A stretch of 64,000 nt of DNA from Octopus vulgaris (Eukaryota), in assembly GCA_951406725.2 (NCBI GenBank), contig OX597840.1, forward strand, positions 9,362,001 to 9,426,000, in the 5' to 3' direction. The position numbers are program-made. Positions 1 to 64,000 of the stretch are shown here, piece by piece. Each line of letters begins with the position of its first letter. Within the stretch, counting starts at the first letter, position 1.

Positions 1-3000
1 ACTCCACCCCTTGGGCATCTCCAAATCACCAATCCAACTGACTTTTTTACCACTGCAGATATAAAATCAGAGGCGGCGACGATAGATTACATCGATATAA
101 AGGAAGACGATGTAATCAAGGCTATAGATGAAATGAAAACAGACTCAGCTACTGGCCCCGATGGATTCCCGGCAATCCTCCTAAAAGCATGTAAGAGAGT
201 CCTAGCAAGACCACTGCAGTTCCTCTTTCAGAGCTTCCTTGCAGCTGGCAAACTTCCAAGAAAACTGAAGGAAGGTAAAATATGCCCCATTCATAAAGGA
301 GGTAGCAGAGCGGAAGCCAAGAACTATAGACCTATCTCTCTGACCTCACACATCAGCAAGGTCATGGAACGAATAGTCAGAAGGAAGCTGATCACCTTCC
401 TTGAAGAGAATGACTTGCTGTCCGACACCCAACATGGTTTCCGACCAGGGAGAAGCTGTTTAACTCAGCTCCTACAACACTATGACTGGGTGCTGAAACG
501 GCTGCTCAACCATTCAAATGTGGAAGTGATATATCTCGACTTTGCAAAGCCTTTGATAAAGTCGATCATGGAATGATATGTCACAAACTGCGTGATCTCA
601 ACATAGTTGGAAAACTGGGAGAATGGCTTCATGACTTTCTGAAAGATAGAAGTCAGGTGGTAGTGGCCAATGGGGCCACTCCCATTAACACGCAAATAGT
701 GAGCGGTGTTCCGCAGGGCACTGTTCTGGGACCACTACTGTTCATAATGGCCCTCTCAGACATGCCCTCAGCCACGCAGAGAGCCACGATCACAAGTTAT
801 GCAGATGATACAAAAGTTTCACAGGCAATACAGAACCCTGAGGACACTAAACACCTGCAATGTGAGCTAGACAAAATATACAAGTGGGCCGAAAAGAATA
901 GCATGCAGTTCAATGCTGAAAAGTTTCAAGCTCTATACTATCAGCATGCAAAACTAAACGCAATACCCAATGAATACACTGGACCCGGAGGAATAGCAAT
1001 CCCAGAGGCACAATCAGTGCGTGACCTAGGTATTTACATGAGTGATGACGCGACCTTTCGTGTACATGTTGCTAAATTGGCAATGAAATGTAGACGACTG
1101 GCCGGATGGATCCTCAGAACCTTTAGAACAAGAGAACAAGAAACCATGATGGTCCGCTGGAGGACACTTGTCCTAAGCCACTTTGACTACTGCTCTCAGT
1201 TATGGTCACCATCCAGTGTCAAGTTGATCACAGAGCTCGGGGCGATCCAACGTAGCTACACGAAGAAGATAGCCTCTATGCAGAATGTAAGCTACTGGGA
1301 AAGACTCAAGAGATTAAAACTATATTCCCTGGAGCGTAGGCGGGAAAGATATGCCATAATATACATCTGGAAGATCCTGGAGGGACGTGTCCTGAACTTT
1401 GGCATCGAGAGTTACGCAAATGCCAGAACTGGGCGCCACTGCGTGGTGCCTAGGACTCCAAACTTGCCATCAAGATGTAGGACAAGATTCTGTGATAGCC
1501 TGGGCTTCCGAGGCCCACAGCTCTTCAATATCTTCCGAAGAACCTGAGAGACCTGCATGGGGTGGATACAGATGTCTTTAAAATGAAGCTGGATCTCTTC
1601 CTGTCAGGTGTCCCAGATGAACCAACTTCACGGCAGGAGGGGCAGATGAGGGCAGCTGCATCGAACTCTCTCATGCACCAAATGGCAGTTGCTAGAAAGC
1701 TTTCGTGAAGTGAAACCAAGTAGCAACACCAAATGGCGGTGCCCCAGCATGGCCACAGCTCATAAGCTGAAACTAGAATCAATCAATCAATCAATCAATC
1801 ATATATATATATATATATATATATATATATATATATATATATATATATATATATATTATATTAAATTAGAGATAAAACCACTATTAAGTAAATCAAACAG
1901 TGAAAAACATAAGCCAATACATAAAATTAATTTAAAAATATAAAAGTTAAAAATTAAAAAATTATTTAAATAATTTAAACTTATAAATTTAAATATATAT
2001 ATATATATATATATATATATAGTGGTTTTATCTCTAATTTAATATAATATAATATATTTATACTATAAAATTGGATTTAATCCTAAATCTAATTTTTCCC
2101 TGTAAGTTTGGATTTATTCCCTAATGTTATTATATATGTATATATATATATATATATATATATATATATATATATATATATATATATATATATATATATA
2201 TATATATATATATATATATATATATATATATATATATATATATATATATATATATTTTATATATATATATATATATATATATATATATATATATATATAT
2301 AACGGGAAGCTTTATGAAAATAAACAAAAGACGAAGGCAGGTGGAAAACAAACGAACAATTGTATTAGTATGGCGCTCAGGAAATATAAATAAAACAAGT
2401 CTTTAACGTTTCGAGCCTACGCTCTTCAACAGAAAGATACACAGAGAGAGAAAAACACAGAAAGAAGGAGAGAAAAAAATGTGGAGAGAAAAAAAATGTA
2501 GGAGAGAAAAAAAAAAAAAAAAAAAAAGGAGAGAAAAAAATGAGAGAAAAAAAAAAATATATATATATATATATGCCTGTTATTACAACAGTAAGATGTA
2601 ATTTGAGGTAGAATTATTTGCTCTTTCTAGCAGCTCAGGACATAAATGCTTTTGTTTTTATTTTTGCAGGTAACCAACAACCAATTGGCAACCGTCAAAA
2701 ATGCTTGCAAGAACACACTGATAGTATATTGTAGTAGAGTCCAAACTTTCTACGGTGTTGATGTGTCGACCCTAACAATGTACGACCTAGAAAAACCCTT
2801 ATATTCTGGGTTGGTTATGAGCTTGTTTATCTTAAACCTAAATACGCCAATCCCGGTCAGCAAAGGACTGCAAGCAAATTACTGGAAGCAGCATATCATG
2901 CCACATGGCCGGAAGATTTTCTTCATACGCTTAGCAAATCAATTAGAACAGAGGAATGGTAAGTAGAGATATTGTTTAGAATTCTACGTTAGATATTTGT

Positions 3001-63000: not shown

Positions 63001-64000
63001 GTGCTTGTGTATTGAGAAAAAATTAGGCATAAGAGGGAGTGTGGAAAAGAGACGACTGTGTTGGTTTGGACATGTGATGTGTATGGATGAAGACAGTTGC
63101 ATAAAGAAGTGGCTGTCACTGAAAATGGATGGAACATGTAGAAGAAGAGACATGGGAAAGAGGGGACTTTATTAGTTTGGACATGTGATGTATATGGCTG
63201 AATACAGTTGTATAAAGAAGAGGGTGTCGTCTAAAATGAATGGAACTTGCGGAAGGAGAAGAGATATGAGATGTGCAAAAGAAACGACTGTGTTGGTTTG
63301 GACATGTGATACACACACACACACACACACACACACACACACACACACAATATATATATATATATATATATATATATATATATATATATACACATATATA
63401 CCACGGGCTTATTTCAGTTTCCGTCTACCAAATCCACTCACAAGGCTTTGGTCGGCCCGAGGCTATAGTAGAAGACACTTACCCAAAGTGCCACGCAGTG
63501 GATTGAACCCGGAGCCCTGTGGTTGGTAAGCAAGCTACTTACCACACAGCCACTCCTACGCCTATAGCTACTTACCACACAGCACTCCTACGACTATATA
63601 TATATATATATATATATATATATATATATATATATATATATGTATATATATATATATATATATATATATATATATATATATATATATATATATATAGTCT
63701 TTAATTGGACTGCACCGGCGGACTTGGATGCTTGACATCCCATACTCTGCGGCACAGTTTCCATCTCGGAAATTCCATTTCCAGGGTCAACTCGAAGCTA
63801 TTCTCAAAAACATTTACTTGCCCAAAATACCACATTGCGTGATCAGACTCGGAATAAATTTGCTATTTGTACCTCAATGCCTGTTCCCTCTCTCCAGGTT
63901 TTCACATGACAAATATCTAACGTAGGATTCTAAACAATATCTCTACTTACCATTCCTCCGTTCTAATTGATTTGCTAAGCGTATGAAGAAAATCTTCCGG

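What the first reader, a model, noticed from the sequence alone, without database searches (positions are those of the whole stretch)
2778..64000. Tail-to-tail pair of modular VWA, repeat-stalk, GPI-like surface protein genes hidden in small exons
Seen: two open, canonically spliced paralogs with the layout signal-like N-terminus, MIDAS-intact VWA, four or three ~120-aa repeats rich in N-x-S/T sequons, Cys spacers and a terminal hydrophobic tail. Established: MIDAS VWA domains are metal-dependent ligand-binding heads (integrin I domains, matrilins), and this kind of C-terminus is typical of GPI signals. Inference: a family of lipid-anchored adhesion or recognition receptors with variable stalk length. 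I do not recognise the architecture, and automated annotation would probably call it only collagen- or matrilin-like.
Basis: partly seen in the sequence, partly recalled or inferred. Interest (0 to 1): 0.8.

Follow-up and report, generated by a model that had tools for sequence, protein, structure and literature searches.

The report
Octopus VWA stalk surface-protein gene pair
Two neighbouring octopus genes, facing each other tail to tail, encode predicted lipid-anchored surface proteins with a metal-dependent binding head on a sugar-coated stalk of variable length; relatives are already in public databases, but only as uncharacterised or misnamed predictions.

Summary
The gene pair is real. 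Gene A (+, 15 exons, 2670-34087) and gene B (-, 11 exons, 64000-42044) lie in the two arms of a diverged inverted duplication. Every junction is AG/GT, all phases match and no exon has an internal stop.

Confirmed: a VWA domain with intact MIDAS motif, four (A) and three (B) repeats of 119-120 aa, 28-aa Cys spacers and an uncharged hydrophobic C-terminus.

Wrong: the "signal-like N-terminus". Met 2778 lies inside an exon whose acceptor is at 2670. In full-length Octopus relatives this is the second half of a ~150-aa helical N-domain behind a real signal peptide. Those 5' exons lie outside the window.

The stalk repeat has no Pfam or PDB sequence match. A confident model (pLDDT 82.6) is closest to PPC/collagen-binding beta-sandwiches, at borderline significance.

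The family belongs to Octopus. A mollusc-wide sister group ends in chitin-binding CBM_14 domains instead of the tail.

The VWA exon is the only exon more diverged than the introns. Its variable sites sit in loops beside the MIDAS motif.

The GPI anchor and an adhesion role remain inferences. I rate it a new variant of a known kind, of moderate interest.

The parts
2670..2958 (+). Phase 0 to 1.
   Evidence: Acceptor ttgcag|GTAACC at 2670 and donor AATG|gtaagt after 2958. 62-72% identical to residues 76-172 of P0009/P0004, and 95% over the last 60 residues to P0008.
7680..8237 (+). Gene A: VWA exon (558 nt, phase 1-1), MIDAS DSSGS...T...D intact.
   Evidence: Pfam VWA E = 1.2e-41; splice sites; family alignment.
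8823..10013 (+). Gene A: stalk repeat 1, type I. Exon a 8823-8947 (125 nt) and exon b 9779-10013 (235 nt).
11551..12596 (+). Gene A: stalk repeat 2, type I. Exon a 11551-11675 and exon b 12362-12596.
18322..18405 (+). Gene A: Cys spacer type 1 (84 nt, phase 1-1, 3 Cys), first copy.
19662..22023 (+). Gene A: stalk repeat 3, type II. Exon a 19662-19783 (122 nt) and exon b 21789-22023 (235 nt). Part of the extra module that gene B lacks.
   Evidence: Direct duplication of the 28-31 kb module.
24425..24508 (+). Gene A: Cys spacer type 2 (84 nt, phase 1-1, 3 Cys), first copy.
27694..27777 (+). Gene A: Cys spacer type 1, second copy.
28428..31255 (+). Gene A: stalk repeat 4, type II. Exon a 28428-28549 and exon b 31018-31255 (238 nt).
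31845..31928 (+). Gene A: Cys spacer type 2, second copy (2 Cys).
33981..34087 (+). Gene A: terminal exon with small-residue run, polar spacer, hydrophobic tail and stop (GPI-signal-like). A polyA-like hexamer lies 94 nt downstream.
63951..64000 (-). Gene B: last 50 nt of the N-domain exon, cut by the window edge.
62116..62676 (-). Gene B: VWA exon (561 nt, phase 1-1), MIDAS intact. 96% identical to the VWA of O. sinensis P0009.
   Evidence: Pfam VWA E = 2.7e-44.
54016..55232 (-). Gene B: stalk repeat 1, type I. Exon a 55232-55108 and exon b 54250-54016.
49465..50511 (-). Gene B: stalk repeat 2, type I. Exon a 50511-50387 and exon b 49699-49465.
46950..47033 (-). Gene B: Cys spacer type 1.
44872..46294 (-). 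Gene B: stalk repeat 3, type II. Exon a 46294-46173 and exon b 45109-44872.
43348..43431 (-). Gene B: Cys spacer type 2.
42044..42150 (-). Gene B: terminal exon with hydrophobic tail and stop. A polyA-like hexamer lies 96 nt downstream.

Best explanation
The window holds two paralogous genes of an Octopus-specific subfamily of secreted VWA proteins, arranged tail to tail in a diverged inverted duplication. Both run off the window at their 5' ends.

Judged from full-length relatives, the mature protein has, in order: a signal peptide; a ~150-aa all-helical N-domain of no known family; one VWA domain with a complete metal-ion site (MIDAS); a stalk of N-glycosylated ~120-aa beta-sandwich modules (two types, PPC-like fold) interspersed with 28-aa Cys-rich spacers; and a C-terminal signal that most likely is exchanged for a GPI lipid anchor.

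Every module is encoded by a symmetric phase 1-1 exon cassette. Modules can therefore be duplicated, lost or skipped without breaking the frame, which explains stalks of 1 to 6 modules in the family and 3 versus 4 here.

The likely mechanism, which is inferred, is that the stalk holds the N-domain/VWA head above the cell surface and the head binds a protein ligand through a ligand carboxylate that completes the MIDAS metal coordination, as in integrin I-domains. Ligand specificity differs between paralogs, because the loops around the MIDAS are the variable part of the family.

The subfamily appears to derive from a mollusc-wide secreted family with the same N-domain, VWA and one beta-module that ends in chitin-binding CBM_14 domains. 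In Octopus the chitin-binding end was replaced by a membrane anchor and the beta-module was amplified.

Shown here: the gene models, the domain order, MIDAS conservation, the fold class of the repeat, family relationships and the pattern of divergence. Inferred: GPI anchoring, adhesion or recognition as the function, and the direction of the evolutionary change.
For: Gene models: all junctions are canonical and in phase, with 0 internal stops.

Inverted duplication: arm-to-arm alignments are 86-97% identical from 2909/64000 inward to 35728/40025.

Family: 15 of 18 hits to the VWA exon are Octopus proteins at 61-83% identity, several with the same module order and tail. tblastn of these proteins places every module in both arms.

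VWA: Pfam E = 1e-41 and 3e-44. The MIDAS D-S-S-G-S, T and D are invariant or nearly so in 16 family VWA domains. The closest solved sequences are collagen VI alpha3, mussel PTMP1 (E = 1.6e-25) and integrin alpha1/alpha2 I-domains (about 5e-17).

Stalk repeat: AlphaFold2 on a 35-row alignment gave pLDDT 82.6 and pTM 0.79, with nine strands. The best PDB match is the PPC domain of a Bacillus collagenase, 5sv5 (E = 1.0e-3, TM 0.61/0.68), and ColG collagen-binding domain 1nqj also matches (TM 0.54/0.56). The Atlas's independent model gave the same class (TM 0.66-0.70 to PPC-bearing M9/M4 proteases).

Tail: the same uncharged hydrophobic end occurs in P0001, P0002, P0004-P0010, P0023 and both window genes. 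Divergent relatives P0021, P0030 and P0031 have different sequences but the same features.

Cassette logic: VWA, a+b repeat, spacer 1 and spacer 2 are all phase 1-1. RefSeq isoforms P0006, P0007 and P0008 differ by exactly one repeat.

Sister group: Acanthosepion, Haliotis and Patella proteins align over 81-99% of P0013 with N-domain, VWA, one beta-module, a Cys spacer and CBM_14.

Head variability: A and B differ at 41 of 185 VWA residues but at only 1-7 residues per stalk or tail exon. VWA exon divergence is 61/558, against 497/8496 in introns (p = 1e-5) and 55/1405 in the other exons. Differences are enriched in four patches next to the MIDAS motifs (18/46 against 24/142 columns, p = 0.004; patches chosen post hoc).
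Against: No transcript evidence could be consulted, so exon use, especially of A's extra module (18322-24508), is unproven. That module differs from its twin with dN/dS of 0.6-1.7, which would also fit relaxed constraint or skipping.

The 5' exons are not in the window, so neither gene is shown to be complete.

GPI anchoring rests on inspection only. A C-terminal transmembrane helix without a tail, or a cleaved propeptide, is not excluded.

The PPC similarity is borderline. No PDB match has E below 0.001 (the best is 1.0e-3), identity is 13%, and CUB, GOLD and other sandwiches score only slightly lower. Pfam PPC is not matched in any of 20 family proteins or 8 window repeat frames scanned, and the exon-b profile finds nothing in PDB sequences (best E = 0.68).

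The excess VWA divergence need not mean positive selection. dS is raised too (0.117) and dN/dS is 1.02. The tree places the two heads in different lineages shared with other species (A with O. bimaculoides P0004, support 93/89; B with O. sinensis P0009, 94/96; neither starred). Old head lineages inside otherwise homogenised arms, or exon-scale conversion from a third paralog, would explain it as well.

Placing the variable patches on the MIDAS face relies on recalled knowledge of the VWA fold, plus the secondary structure of a low-confidence model. It does not rest on coordinates.
Confidence: 0.6

Rival explanations
1. Matrix protein rather than receptor. The proteins are structural components of a chitin- or collagen-containing extracellular matrix (sucker lining, beak, radula, gut cuticle, stylet), like their CBM_14-bearing relatives and like mussel PTMP1. 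The lipid anchor only tethers them transiently to the secreting epithelium, and the VWA head cross-links matrix fibres.
For: The sister branch and the mollusc-wide relatives end in chitin-binding CBM_14 domains. The closest solved VWA sequences are matrix or collagen binders: collagen VI alpha3, PTMP1 and integrin alpha1/alpha2 I-domains. The stalk fold resembles collagen-binding and PPC modules. In the passages I read, the Pif/BMSP paper reports single-VWA BMSP-type proteins in O. bimaculoides (PMC11291548).
Against: The window genes have no CBM_14, collagen or other matrix-assembly domain. A conserved GPI-like tail argues for a cell-surface location. Paralog-specific variation around the MIDAS is less expected for a bulk structural protein. 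No expression or proteome datum was available.
Confidence: 0.25
2. Diversified recognition receptors. The family is a repertoire of variable-headed receptors for immune, self/non-self or contact chemosensory recognition, with ligand-binding loops under diversifying selection and stalk length tuned by cassette exons.
For: The VWA exon is the only exon more diverged than the introns. The variable sites cluster next to the MIDAS motifs while the MIDAS itself and the C-terminal half are nearly invariant. The family is multi-copy with isoforms. Distinct head lineages persist across species.
Against: dN/dS is about 1, not above 1, and dS is raised too. The tree supports are below the tool's strict threshold. 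The patches were defined post hoc. There are no expression, ligand or population data. About a dozen paralogs per species is a small repertoire.
Confidence: 0.15
3. Artefact or pseudogenes. The mirror-image pair is an assembly artefact such as a palindromic chimera, or one or both copies are decaying duplicates that are not expressed.
For: The whole window is one large palindrome, an arrangement that some long-read assemblers create. The introns are full of retroelements and satellites. The 5' exons are missing from the window. A's extra module evolves with dN/dS of 0.6-1.7.
Against: The arms differ by 6.1% in introns (497/8496) and carry different insertions: a LINE at 14180-17380 and an extra 9-kb module in A only, and a LINE remnant at about 57-59 kb in B only. 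An artefactual palindrome would have near-identical arms. All 26 exons are open with intact splice sites and matching phases. Outside the VWA, exons are more conserved than introns (55/1405 against 497/8496, p = 0.003), which indicates purifying selection on both copies.
Confidence: 0.05
4. The protein starts at Met 2778 and the hydrophobic stretch LYSGLVMSLFILNL acts as the signal peptide.
For: Three RefSeq isoform models of O. sinensis LOC115230178 (P0006-P0008) start at the same Met.
Against: Those models sit on a 31.7-kb contig and are probably truncated. The frame is open and homologous for 36 codons upstream of the Met, back to a strong acceptor at 2670. Eight full-length relatives from three Octopus species, plus cuttlefish, abalone and limpet proteins, have a signal peptide and a further ~75 residues upstream.
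Confidence: 0.03

Closest known systems
Octopus predicted proteins LOC115230178 and LOC115230439 (O. sinensis), LOC106868389 and A0A0L8HVA9 (O. bimaculoides), and unnamed O. vulgaris models (P0001-P0016)
   Same: The same family: identical module order, the same Cys spacers and the same C-terminal tail. VWA identity to the window genes is 61-96%.
   Different: None is identical to either window gene. None is characterised. The names range from 'uncharacterized' to 'collagen alpha-1(XII) chain'. Some models are truncated (P0006-8) or look like fusions of neighbouring genes (P0001 and P0002 each carry two VWA heads).
Mollusc-wide N-domain / VWA / CBM_14 proteins (Haliotis LOC124143446, Patella SNE40_000299, an Acanthosepion protein; Octopus P0012, P0013, P0022)
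   Same: Signal peptide, the same helical N-domain (GGIW invariant), one MIDAS VWA, one copy of the beta-module and a Cys spacer.
   Different: They end in up to three chitin-binding CBM_14 domains and have no hydrophobic tail. They have one beta-module, against 3-4 here.
Pif / BMSP shell-matrix proteins of molluscs
   Same: Mollusc extracellular proteins with a VWA domain, and the sister branch shares the VWA plus CBM_14 combination. The Pif/BMSP paper reports single-VWA BMSP-type proteins in O. bimaculoides (PMC11291548, passages read).
   Different: The window genes lack CBM_14, laminin-G and acidic or low-complexity regions. In the passages I saw, neither a helical N-domain nor a GPI tail is described for Pif/BMSP. 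Whether this family falls inside that paper's Pif/BMSP clade could not be checked, because its supplements are closed.
Integrin alpha I-domains, and single-VWA receptors on a stalk such as the anthrax toxin receptors TEM8/CMG2 and the apicomplexan adhesins TRAP/MIC2
   Same: A single MIDAS VWA head displayed on an extended stalk at a cell surface, with metal-dependent ligand binding. Integrin alpha1/alpha2 I-domains and MIC2 are among the closest solved VWA sequences. The stalk-receptor analogy is from my own knowledge.
   Different: Those are transmembrane proteins with cytoplasmic tails and other stalk domains (Ig-like, TSR, thigh/calf). Here the stalk is PPC-like modules and the anchor is GPI-like.
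Calcium-channel alpha2-delta subunits
   Same: Extracellular GPI-anchored proteins with a MIDAS VWA domain. This was the only context in which the literature search for cephalopod + VWA + GPI-anchored found both features together (listing and abstracts only).
   Different: alpha2-delta proteins have Cache domains and a disulfide-linked delta chain. No such domains are detected here.
PPC (pre-peptidase C-terminal) and collagen-binding domains of bacterial M9 collagenases
   Same: The best structural matches to the stalk repeat model: 5sv5 at TM 0.61/0.68 and 1nqj at TM 0.54/0.56.
   Different: No detectable sequence similarity. The octopus module carries a conserved Cys pair and 2-5 N-glycosylation sequons, and it is split over two exons.

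Membership tests
VWA domain (Pfam PF00092) | Match to the family profile above the curated cut-off | tested here: met
   143.2 and 151.9 bits against a cut-off of 23.8.
VWA domain (Pfam PF00092) | Complete MIDAS: DxSxS after strand 1, a Thr in the alpha2-alpha3 loop and an Asp after strand 4 | tested here: met
   DSSGS, G(T/S)(A/T)T and VTDG are present in both genes and conserved across 16 family domains. The definition of the motif is recalled.
GPI-anchored proteins | N-terminal secretory signal peptide | tested here: inconclusive
   The 5' exons are outside the window. Full-length relatives begin M(S/T)I(K/G)YLLFVGICLGIARHVYA, which looks like a signal peptide, but no predictor was available.
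GPI-anchored proteins | C-terminal signal: small residues at and after the attachment site, a short polar spacer, then a 15-20-residue hydrophobic end with no cytoplasmic tail | tested here: inconclusive
   CTSTAS / DIGVTKQ / LLINAWIYAGLLL(L/V)WQMA-stop. Mean hydropathy of the last 16 residues is 1.31-1.34, with 0 charged residues. This was judged by inspection against recalled rules; NetGPI and PredGPI were not available.
GPI-anchored proteins | Release from cells by PI-specific phospholipase C | not testable with these tools
   Requires an experiment.
PPC domain (Pfam PF04151) / collagenase collagen-binding domain | Match to the family profile | tested here: not met
   No PPC hit at E up to 1 in 8 window repeat frames, 6 full-length relatives, 10 divergent relatives or 4 non-octopus relatives at E up to 10.
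PPC domain (Pfam PF04151) / collagenase collagen-binding domain | The same beta-sandwich fold | tested here: inconclusive
   The best PDB match is a PPC domain (5sv5, E = 1.0e-3, TM 0.61/0.68), but no match has E below 0.001, and CUB, GOLD and other sandwiches follow closely.
Pif / BMSP shell-matrix family | A chitin-binding (CBM_14) domain next to the VWA | tested here: not met
   No CBM_14 in the window exons or in GPI-type relatives. It is present only in the sister branch.
Collagen XII / matrilins (the names given by automated annotation) | Collagen triple-helix repeats and FN3 domains (collagen XII); EGF domains and a C-terminal coiled coil (matrilins) | tested here: not met
   Pfam finds only VWA-type families in P0004, P0005, P0008 and P0009 and in the window frames. 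The definitions are recalled.
GH23 lysozyme / lytic transglycosylase fold (for the N-domain) | Sequence or profile similarity, including the catalytic Glu-Ser and GLMQ motifs | tested here: not met
   Pfam finds no SLT or lysozyme hit. For PHROGs the best N-domain hit is phrog_3108 at E = 0.068. PDB sequences give E = 1.3. hhalign of an 8-sequence N-domain profile against E. coli Slt70 gives 0.1% probability. Only the Atlas model comparison suggests the fold (TM 0.57-0.84). The motif resemblance in the gastropod sequences is recalled.
Calcium-channel alpha2-delta | Cache domains flanking the VWA | tested here: not met
   No Cache family in any Pfam scan.

The most novel reading that the evidence does not exclude
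Octopuses turned a mollusc-wide chitin-matrix protein into a lineage-specific repertoire of GPI-anchored recognition receptors. The metal-dependent binding face of the head is kept diverse between paralogs: old head lineages are preserved while the rest of the gene is homogenised. The reach of the receptor is set by adding or skipping stalk cassettes. On this reading it would be a receptor family for contact recognition (immune, self/non-self or chemotactile), built on a domain combination not described in any other animal.
Probability: 0.15. Interest if true: 0.75.

Novelty: new variant of a known kind. Interest (0 to 1): 0.45.

Why it matters
For annotation, the public names for this family ('collagen alpha-1(XII)', 'uncharacterized', 'VWFA domain-containing') hide a consistent and unusual architecture.

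For biology, two of the four module types (the N-domain and the stalk repeat) belong to no Pfam family, and the stalk repeat finds only 22 matches at E <= 0.001 among 1.84 billion representative proteins. These are therefore lineage-restricted domains, and one of them now has a confident fold model.

The family also gives a clean example of cassette-exon evolution, since all modules are phase 1-1. It shows a switch from a chitin-binding end to a lipid-anchor end within one protein family.

If the head diversity proves to be selected, this would be a candidate recognition-receptor family in an animal whose surface recognition systems are of wide interest.

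Tried and rejected
1. Pfam on the repeat half-exons and on full-length relatives found no family for the repeat, spacers or N-domain.

2. The exon-b profile against PDB sequences gave only chance hits, at E = 0.68 and 0.82.

3. A full-length AlphaFold2 model of P0004 from a 15-row alignment had mean pLDDT 52.9 and pTM 0.34. I judged it too poor for a fold search and used it only for secondary structure.

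4. The lysozyme / lytic-transglycosylase reading of the N-domain was suggested by the Atlas and by a recalled motif resemblance. Pfam, PHROGs, PDB sequence search and hhalign against E. coli Slt70 were all negative, so I keep it only as a lead.

5. Weak hits of the exon-b profile to bacterial repeat proteins (P0028, P0033, P0036) and to a CUB-repeat protein (P0029) cover 26-47 profile positions of low-complexity-like sequence. I treated them as chance.

6. My first regex extraction of VWA domains missed most proteins. I replaced it with BLAST-based extraction.

7. Literature: six locus or accession identifiers gave 0 papers. 'octopus / von Willebrand factor / chitin-binding / sucker' gave 34 papers, of which 20 were listed and none describes this architecture. 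I read passages of four: PMC11291548, PMC9635652, PMC10138644 and bioRxiv 10.1101/2021.07.10.451900. 'cephalopod / VWA / GPI-anchored' gave 2 papers, both calcium-channel reviews.

8. I considered an assembly artefact and rejected it, because the arms have diverged and carry different insertions.

9. tRNA scan of the window for a SINE head: 0 genes.

10. I sent no complex prediction, because the report does not claim that two particular proteins bind.

Not done. The window's exons were never joined into a spliced protein; all searches with window sequence were exon by exon, and whole-protein analyses used stored public relatives. I did not use the genome-contig collection because it holds only bacteria and archaea. 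Supplementary tables are closed, for example the lists of O. bimaculoides VWA proteins in PMC11291548 and the skin-mucus proteome of PMC10138644, and they may already list members of this family.

Full report
**What is in the window.** The 64-kb window has no N and about 37% G+C. It is rich in (TA)n and other microsatellites and in retroelement fragments, as expected for an animal genome. A self-comparison shows that almost the whole window is one large, diverged inverted duplication. Matching arm segments run from 2909/64000 inward to 35728/40025 at 86-97% identity, so the centre lies at about 38 kb.

**Gene models.** Two open frames match the VWA family: PF00092 at E = 1.2e-41 for 7532-8254 (+) and 2.7e-44 for 62096-62689 (-). 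I aligned all seven copies of each half-repeat at the DNA level. Every copy keeps an AG acceptor and a GTAAG donor at the same aligned position. Exon a is 125 or 122 nt and runs from phase 1 to phase 0. Exon b is 235 or 238 nt and runs from phase 0 to phase 1. One repeat is therefore 357-360 nt, or 119-120 codons. The VWA exon is 558 nt in A and 561 nt in B and is phase 1-1.

Public Octopus relatives mapped back onto the window with tblastn located the remaining exons. These are an N-domain exon, two kinds of 84-nt Cys-rich spacer (both phase 1-1) and a terminal exon. The final tally is 15 exons for gene A (2670-34087; 2,727 nt including the stop) and 11 for gene B (64000-42044, the first cut by the window edge). 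There are no internal stops, every junction is AG...GT, and the phases match throughout.

The layout of A is: N-domain part, VWA, type-I repeat x2, spacer 1, type-II repeat, spacer 2, spacer 1, type-II repeat, spacer 2, tail. B lacks one spacer 1 / type-II repeat / spacer 2 module. All searches with window sequence were made exon by exon, and whole-protein analyses used stored public relatives.

The 36 codons before the Met (VTNNQLATVKNACKN...) align with residues 76-112 of full-length relatives. Full-length proteins such as P0004, P0005, P0009 and P0010 begin with a typical signal peptide (MSIKYLLFVGICLGIARHVYA). A domain of about 150 aa follows, and the hydrophobic stretch LYSGLVMSLFILNL is an internal helix within it. 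Residues 1-75 of these proteins have no match in the window, so the 5' exons of both genes lie beyond the window ends. Three RefSeq isoform models of O. sinensis (P0006-P0008), on a 31.7-kb contig, start at the same internal Met.

**The head.** Both genes have the complete MIDAS motif (DSSGS ... T ... TDG). Across 16 VWA domains of the family the MIDAS residues and the whole C-terminal half are nearly invariant. The closest solved sequences are matrix and collagen binders: collagen VI alpha3, the mussel byssal protein PTMP1 (E = 1.6e-25) and the I-domains of integrins alpha1 and alpha2 (about 5e-17).

The N-domain is all-helical in a low-confidence model and matches no Pfam family. The ESM Atlas comparison of its own model suggested a lysozyme / lytic-transglycosylase-like fold (TM 0.57-0.84). 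It also found a mollusc cluster of VWA plus CBM_14 proteins with the same domain (TM 0.90). Sequence tests of the lysozyme idea were all negative: PHROGs, PDB sequences, Pfam on gastropod and cuttlefish relatives, and hhalign against E. coli Slt70 at 0.1% probability. It remains a lead only.

**The stalk.** The repeat has no Pfam match in any form. Its exon-b profile finds nothing in PDB sequences. Among 1.84 billion representative proteins it finds only 22 matches at E <= 0.001, of which 10 are at E <= 1e-10. The credible ones are family members or divergent relatives of similar layout.

For a structure I used one unbroken stretch of the stored O. sinensis protein P0008 (its first repeat, 85-90% identical to the window's type-I exons) as the target. 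The alignment had 35 rows: the target, the window's four type-I exon-a and seven exon-b translations as separate partial rows, and 23 stored family proteins. I dropped three type-II exon-a rows because MAFFT misplaced them. The model is confident, with mean pLDDT 82.6, pTM 0.79 and nine strands.

Its best PDB match is the pre-peptidase C-terminal (PPC) domain of a Bacillus collagenase (5sv5, E = 1.0e-3, TM 0.61/0.68, 13% identity). The ColG collagen-binding domain, the structurally related claudin-binding domain of C. perfringens enterotoxin, and CUB and GOLD sandwiches follow. No match has E below 0.001. The Atlas's independent model pointed to the same class. I therefore call the repeat a PPC-like beta-sandwich by fold, and not a member of the PPC family. 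Each repeat carries one conserved Cys pair and 2-5 sequons, and the totals are 16 (A) and 10 (B) within exons.

**The tail.** Both genes end ...C-T-S-T-A-S-D-I-G-V-T-K-Q-LLINAWIYAGLLL(L/V)WQMA-stop. This is a run of small residues, a short polar spacer and an 18-residue uncharged hydrophobic end with nothing after it. The same tail occurs in P0001, P0002, P0004-P0010 and P0023. More distant relatives (P0021, P0030, P0031) have unrelated tail sequences with the same features, for example SGAT(S/A)W followed by a hydrophobic end. Conservation of the features without the sequence is what a GPI signal predicts. No GPI predictor was available, however, so this stays an inference. Both genes have a polyadenylation-like hexamer 94-96 nt after the stop.

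**Family and origin.** Of 18 proteins found with the VWA exon, 15 are from O. bimaculoides, O. vulgaris or O. sinensis. The N-domain search found 9 proteins, all Octopus. Among GPI-type members the stalk has 1 to 6 beta-modules.

A sister branch in Octopus (P0012, P0013, P0022) has one beta-module and ends in CBM_14 chitin-binding domains instead of the tail. With P0013 as the query, full-length relatives appear in a cuttlefish, two abalones and a limpet, at 25-33% identity and 81-99% coverage. All are 'uncharacterized' and all have the plan signal / N-domain / VWA / one beta-module / Cys spacer / CBM_14. The simplest reading is that the Octopus GPI-type subfamily arose from this mollusc-wide chitin-binding family, by exchanging the C-terminal end and amplifying the stalk cassettes. 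The direction of change is inferred from the taxonomic spread and has not been tested with a rooted tree.

**How the two copies differ.** Between the arms the aligned intron columns differ at 497 of 8,496 positions (K = 0.061). The exons other than the VWA exon differ at 55 of 1,405 positions, which is significantly less than the introns (p = 0.003) and is the signature of purifying selection on both copies. The VWA exon differs at 61 of 558 positions (K = 0.118). That is more than all introns (p = 1e-5) and more than its own flanking introns (32 of 456, p = 0.037).

At the protein level, 41 of 185 head residues differ, against 1-7 per stalk or tail exon. dN/dS is 1.02 for the head. It is 0.21-0.57 for six of the nine stalk and tail exon pairs and undefined for the other three, which have no synonymous differences. 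Within the head, the A/B differences and the family-wide variability concentrate in four patches: just after DxSxS, the beta2-beta3 hairpin, the loop before the MIDAS Thr, and just after TDG (18 of 46 columns differ, against 24 of 142 elsewhere, p = 0.004; the patches were chosen after seeing the data). By textbook knowledge of the VWA fold, these loops surround the metal site.

A tree of the 16 VWA domains places A's head with O. bimaculoides P0004 (support 93/89) and B's head with O. sinensis P0009 (94/96, 96% identity). Two readings fit. In one, the binding face is under diversifying selection. In the other, two old head lineages are retained, or were imported by exon-scale gene conversion, in arms that are otherwise homogenised. 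The raised dS (0.117) favours a contribution from the second. I cannot separate the two readings without the coding DNA of all paralogs.

**What it most likely does.** A lipid-anchored, heavily glycosylated stalk presents an N-domain/VWA head that binds a ligand through its MIDAS metal. The nearest relatives of the head, and the chitin-binding sister branch, point to an extracellular-matrix partner. The paralog-specific binding face and the cell-surface anchor point to recognition or adhesion rather than bulk structure. I put the overall architecture-plus-mechanism reading at 0.6, a matrix-protein role at 0.25, and a diversified recognition repertoire (a sharper version of the main reading) at 0.15.

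**Literature.** No paper in the searchable library names the loci or accessions, and none of those inspected describes the architecture. For each of those papers I saw search listings and keyword passages only. Supplementary tables, which may list family members among octopus VWA proteins or in proteomes, are closed.

**Verdict.** The genes are new members of a family that already exists in databases as uncharacterised predictions. The architecture is a new variant of the known kind 'extracellular MIDAS-VWA adhesion/matrix protein', with two lineage-restricted domains. One of these now has a confident PPC-like fold model. Interest is moderate.

Noticed in passing
window 14180-17380 (-); related copies at 1-1861 (+) and about 56984-58964 (-): A LINE-type retrotransposon with an uninterrupted 1,066-aa open frame carrying endonuclease (Exo_endo_phos) and reverse-transcriptase domains sits in the intron between gene A's repeat 2 and spacer 1. 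The fragment at the window start is 96.8% identical to it, which suggests recent activity. The copy in gene B's intron is only 73% identical and is broken into several frames.
   Followed up: partly
window 19932-20716 and 29393-30343: Two arrays of a 158-bp tandem repeat (5 and 6 copies, 96-97% matches) lie in the introns inside the type-II repeats of gene A. On the minus strand each unit is open and reads like the C-terminal end of a LINE ORF2. The corresponding intron of gene B holds about one unit.
   Followed up: partly
window 6326-6790, 9209-9609, 21254-21659, 27962-28372, 31316-31586, 40346-40816, 44554-44811, 46352-46765, 54413-54832, 63309-63607: A dispersed repeat of about 400 bp occurs at least ten times in both orientations at 76-89% identity, mostly in introns. 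It looks like a SINE-like element, but no tRNA-like head was found by ARAGORN.
   Followed up: partly
window 4081-6071 (-): Three consecutive open frames (174, 208 and 317 aa) in gene A's first intron look like a decayed retroelement; one has a GIY-YIG-like motif by eye. None matches a Pfam family at E <= 0.001. The corresponding intron in gene B is about 3.5 kb shorter, so this is an insertion in A.
   Followed up: partly
window 27574-32577 against 47153-42693: Arm-to-arm identity is uneven: 96-97% around the last stalk module and spacer 2, with no synonymous differences in three exons there, but 89-90% around the VWA exon and repeat 1. This suggests gene conversion acting more strongly on some parts of the palindrome.
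   Followed up: partly
stored proteins P0001 and P0002 (not in the window): The O. bimaculoides model named 'collagen alpha-1(XII) chain isoform X1' and one O. vulgaris model each contain two VWA heads. In P0002 a second partial N-domain follows the first stalk repeat. They look like fusions of neighbouring family genes, which would mean the family is clustered in tandem in those genomes as well.
   Followed up: no
alignment A8, N-domain columns (stored proteins, not in the window): At the position where abalone and limpet relatives have Glu in RRLAYVE(T/S)xDG, the cuttlefish has Asp and all four Octopus proteins have Gln. If the N-domain is an enzyme-like fold, Octopus may have lost a catalytic residue. 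No sequence test supported the lysozyme idea.
   Followed up: partly
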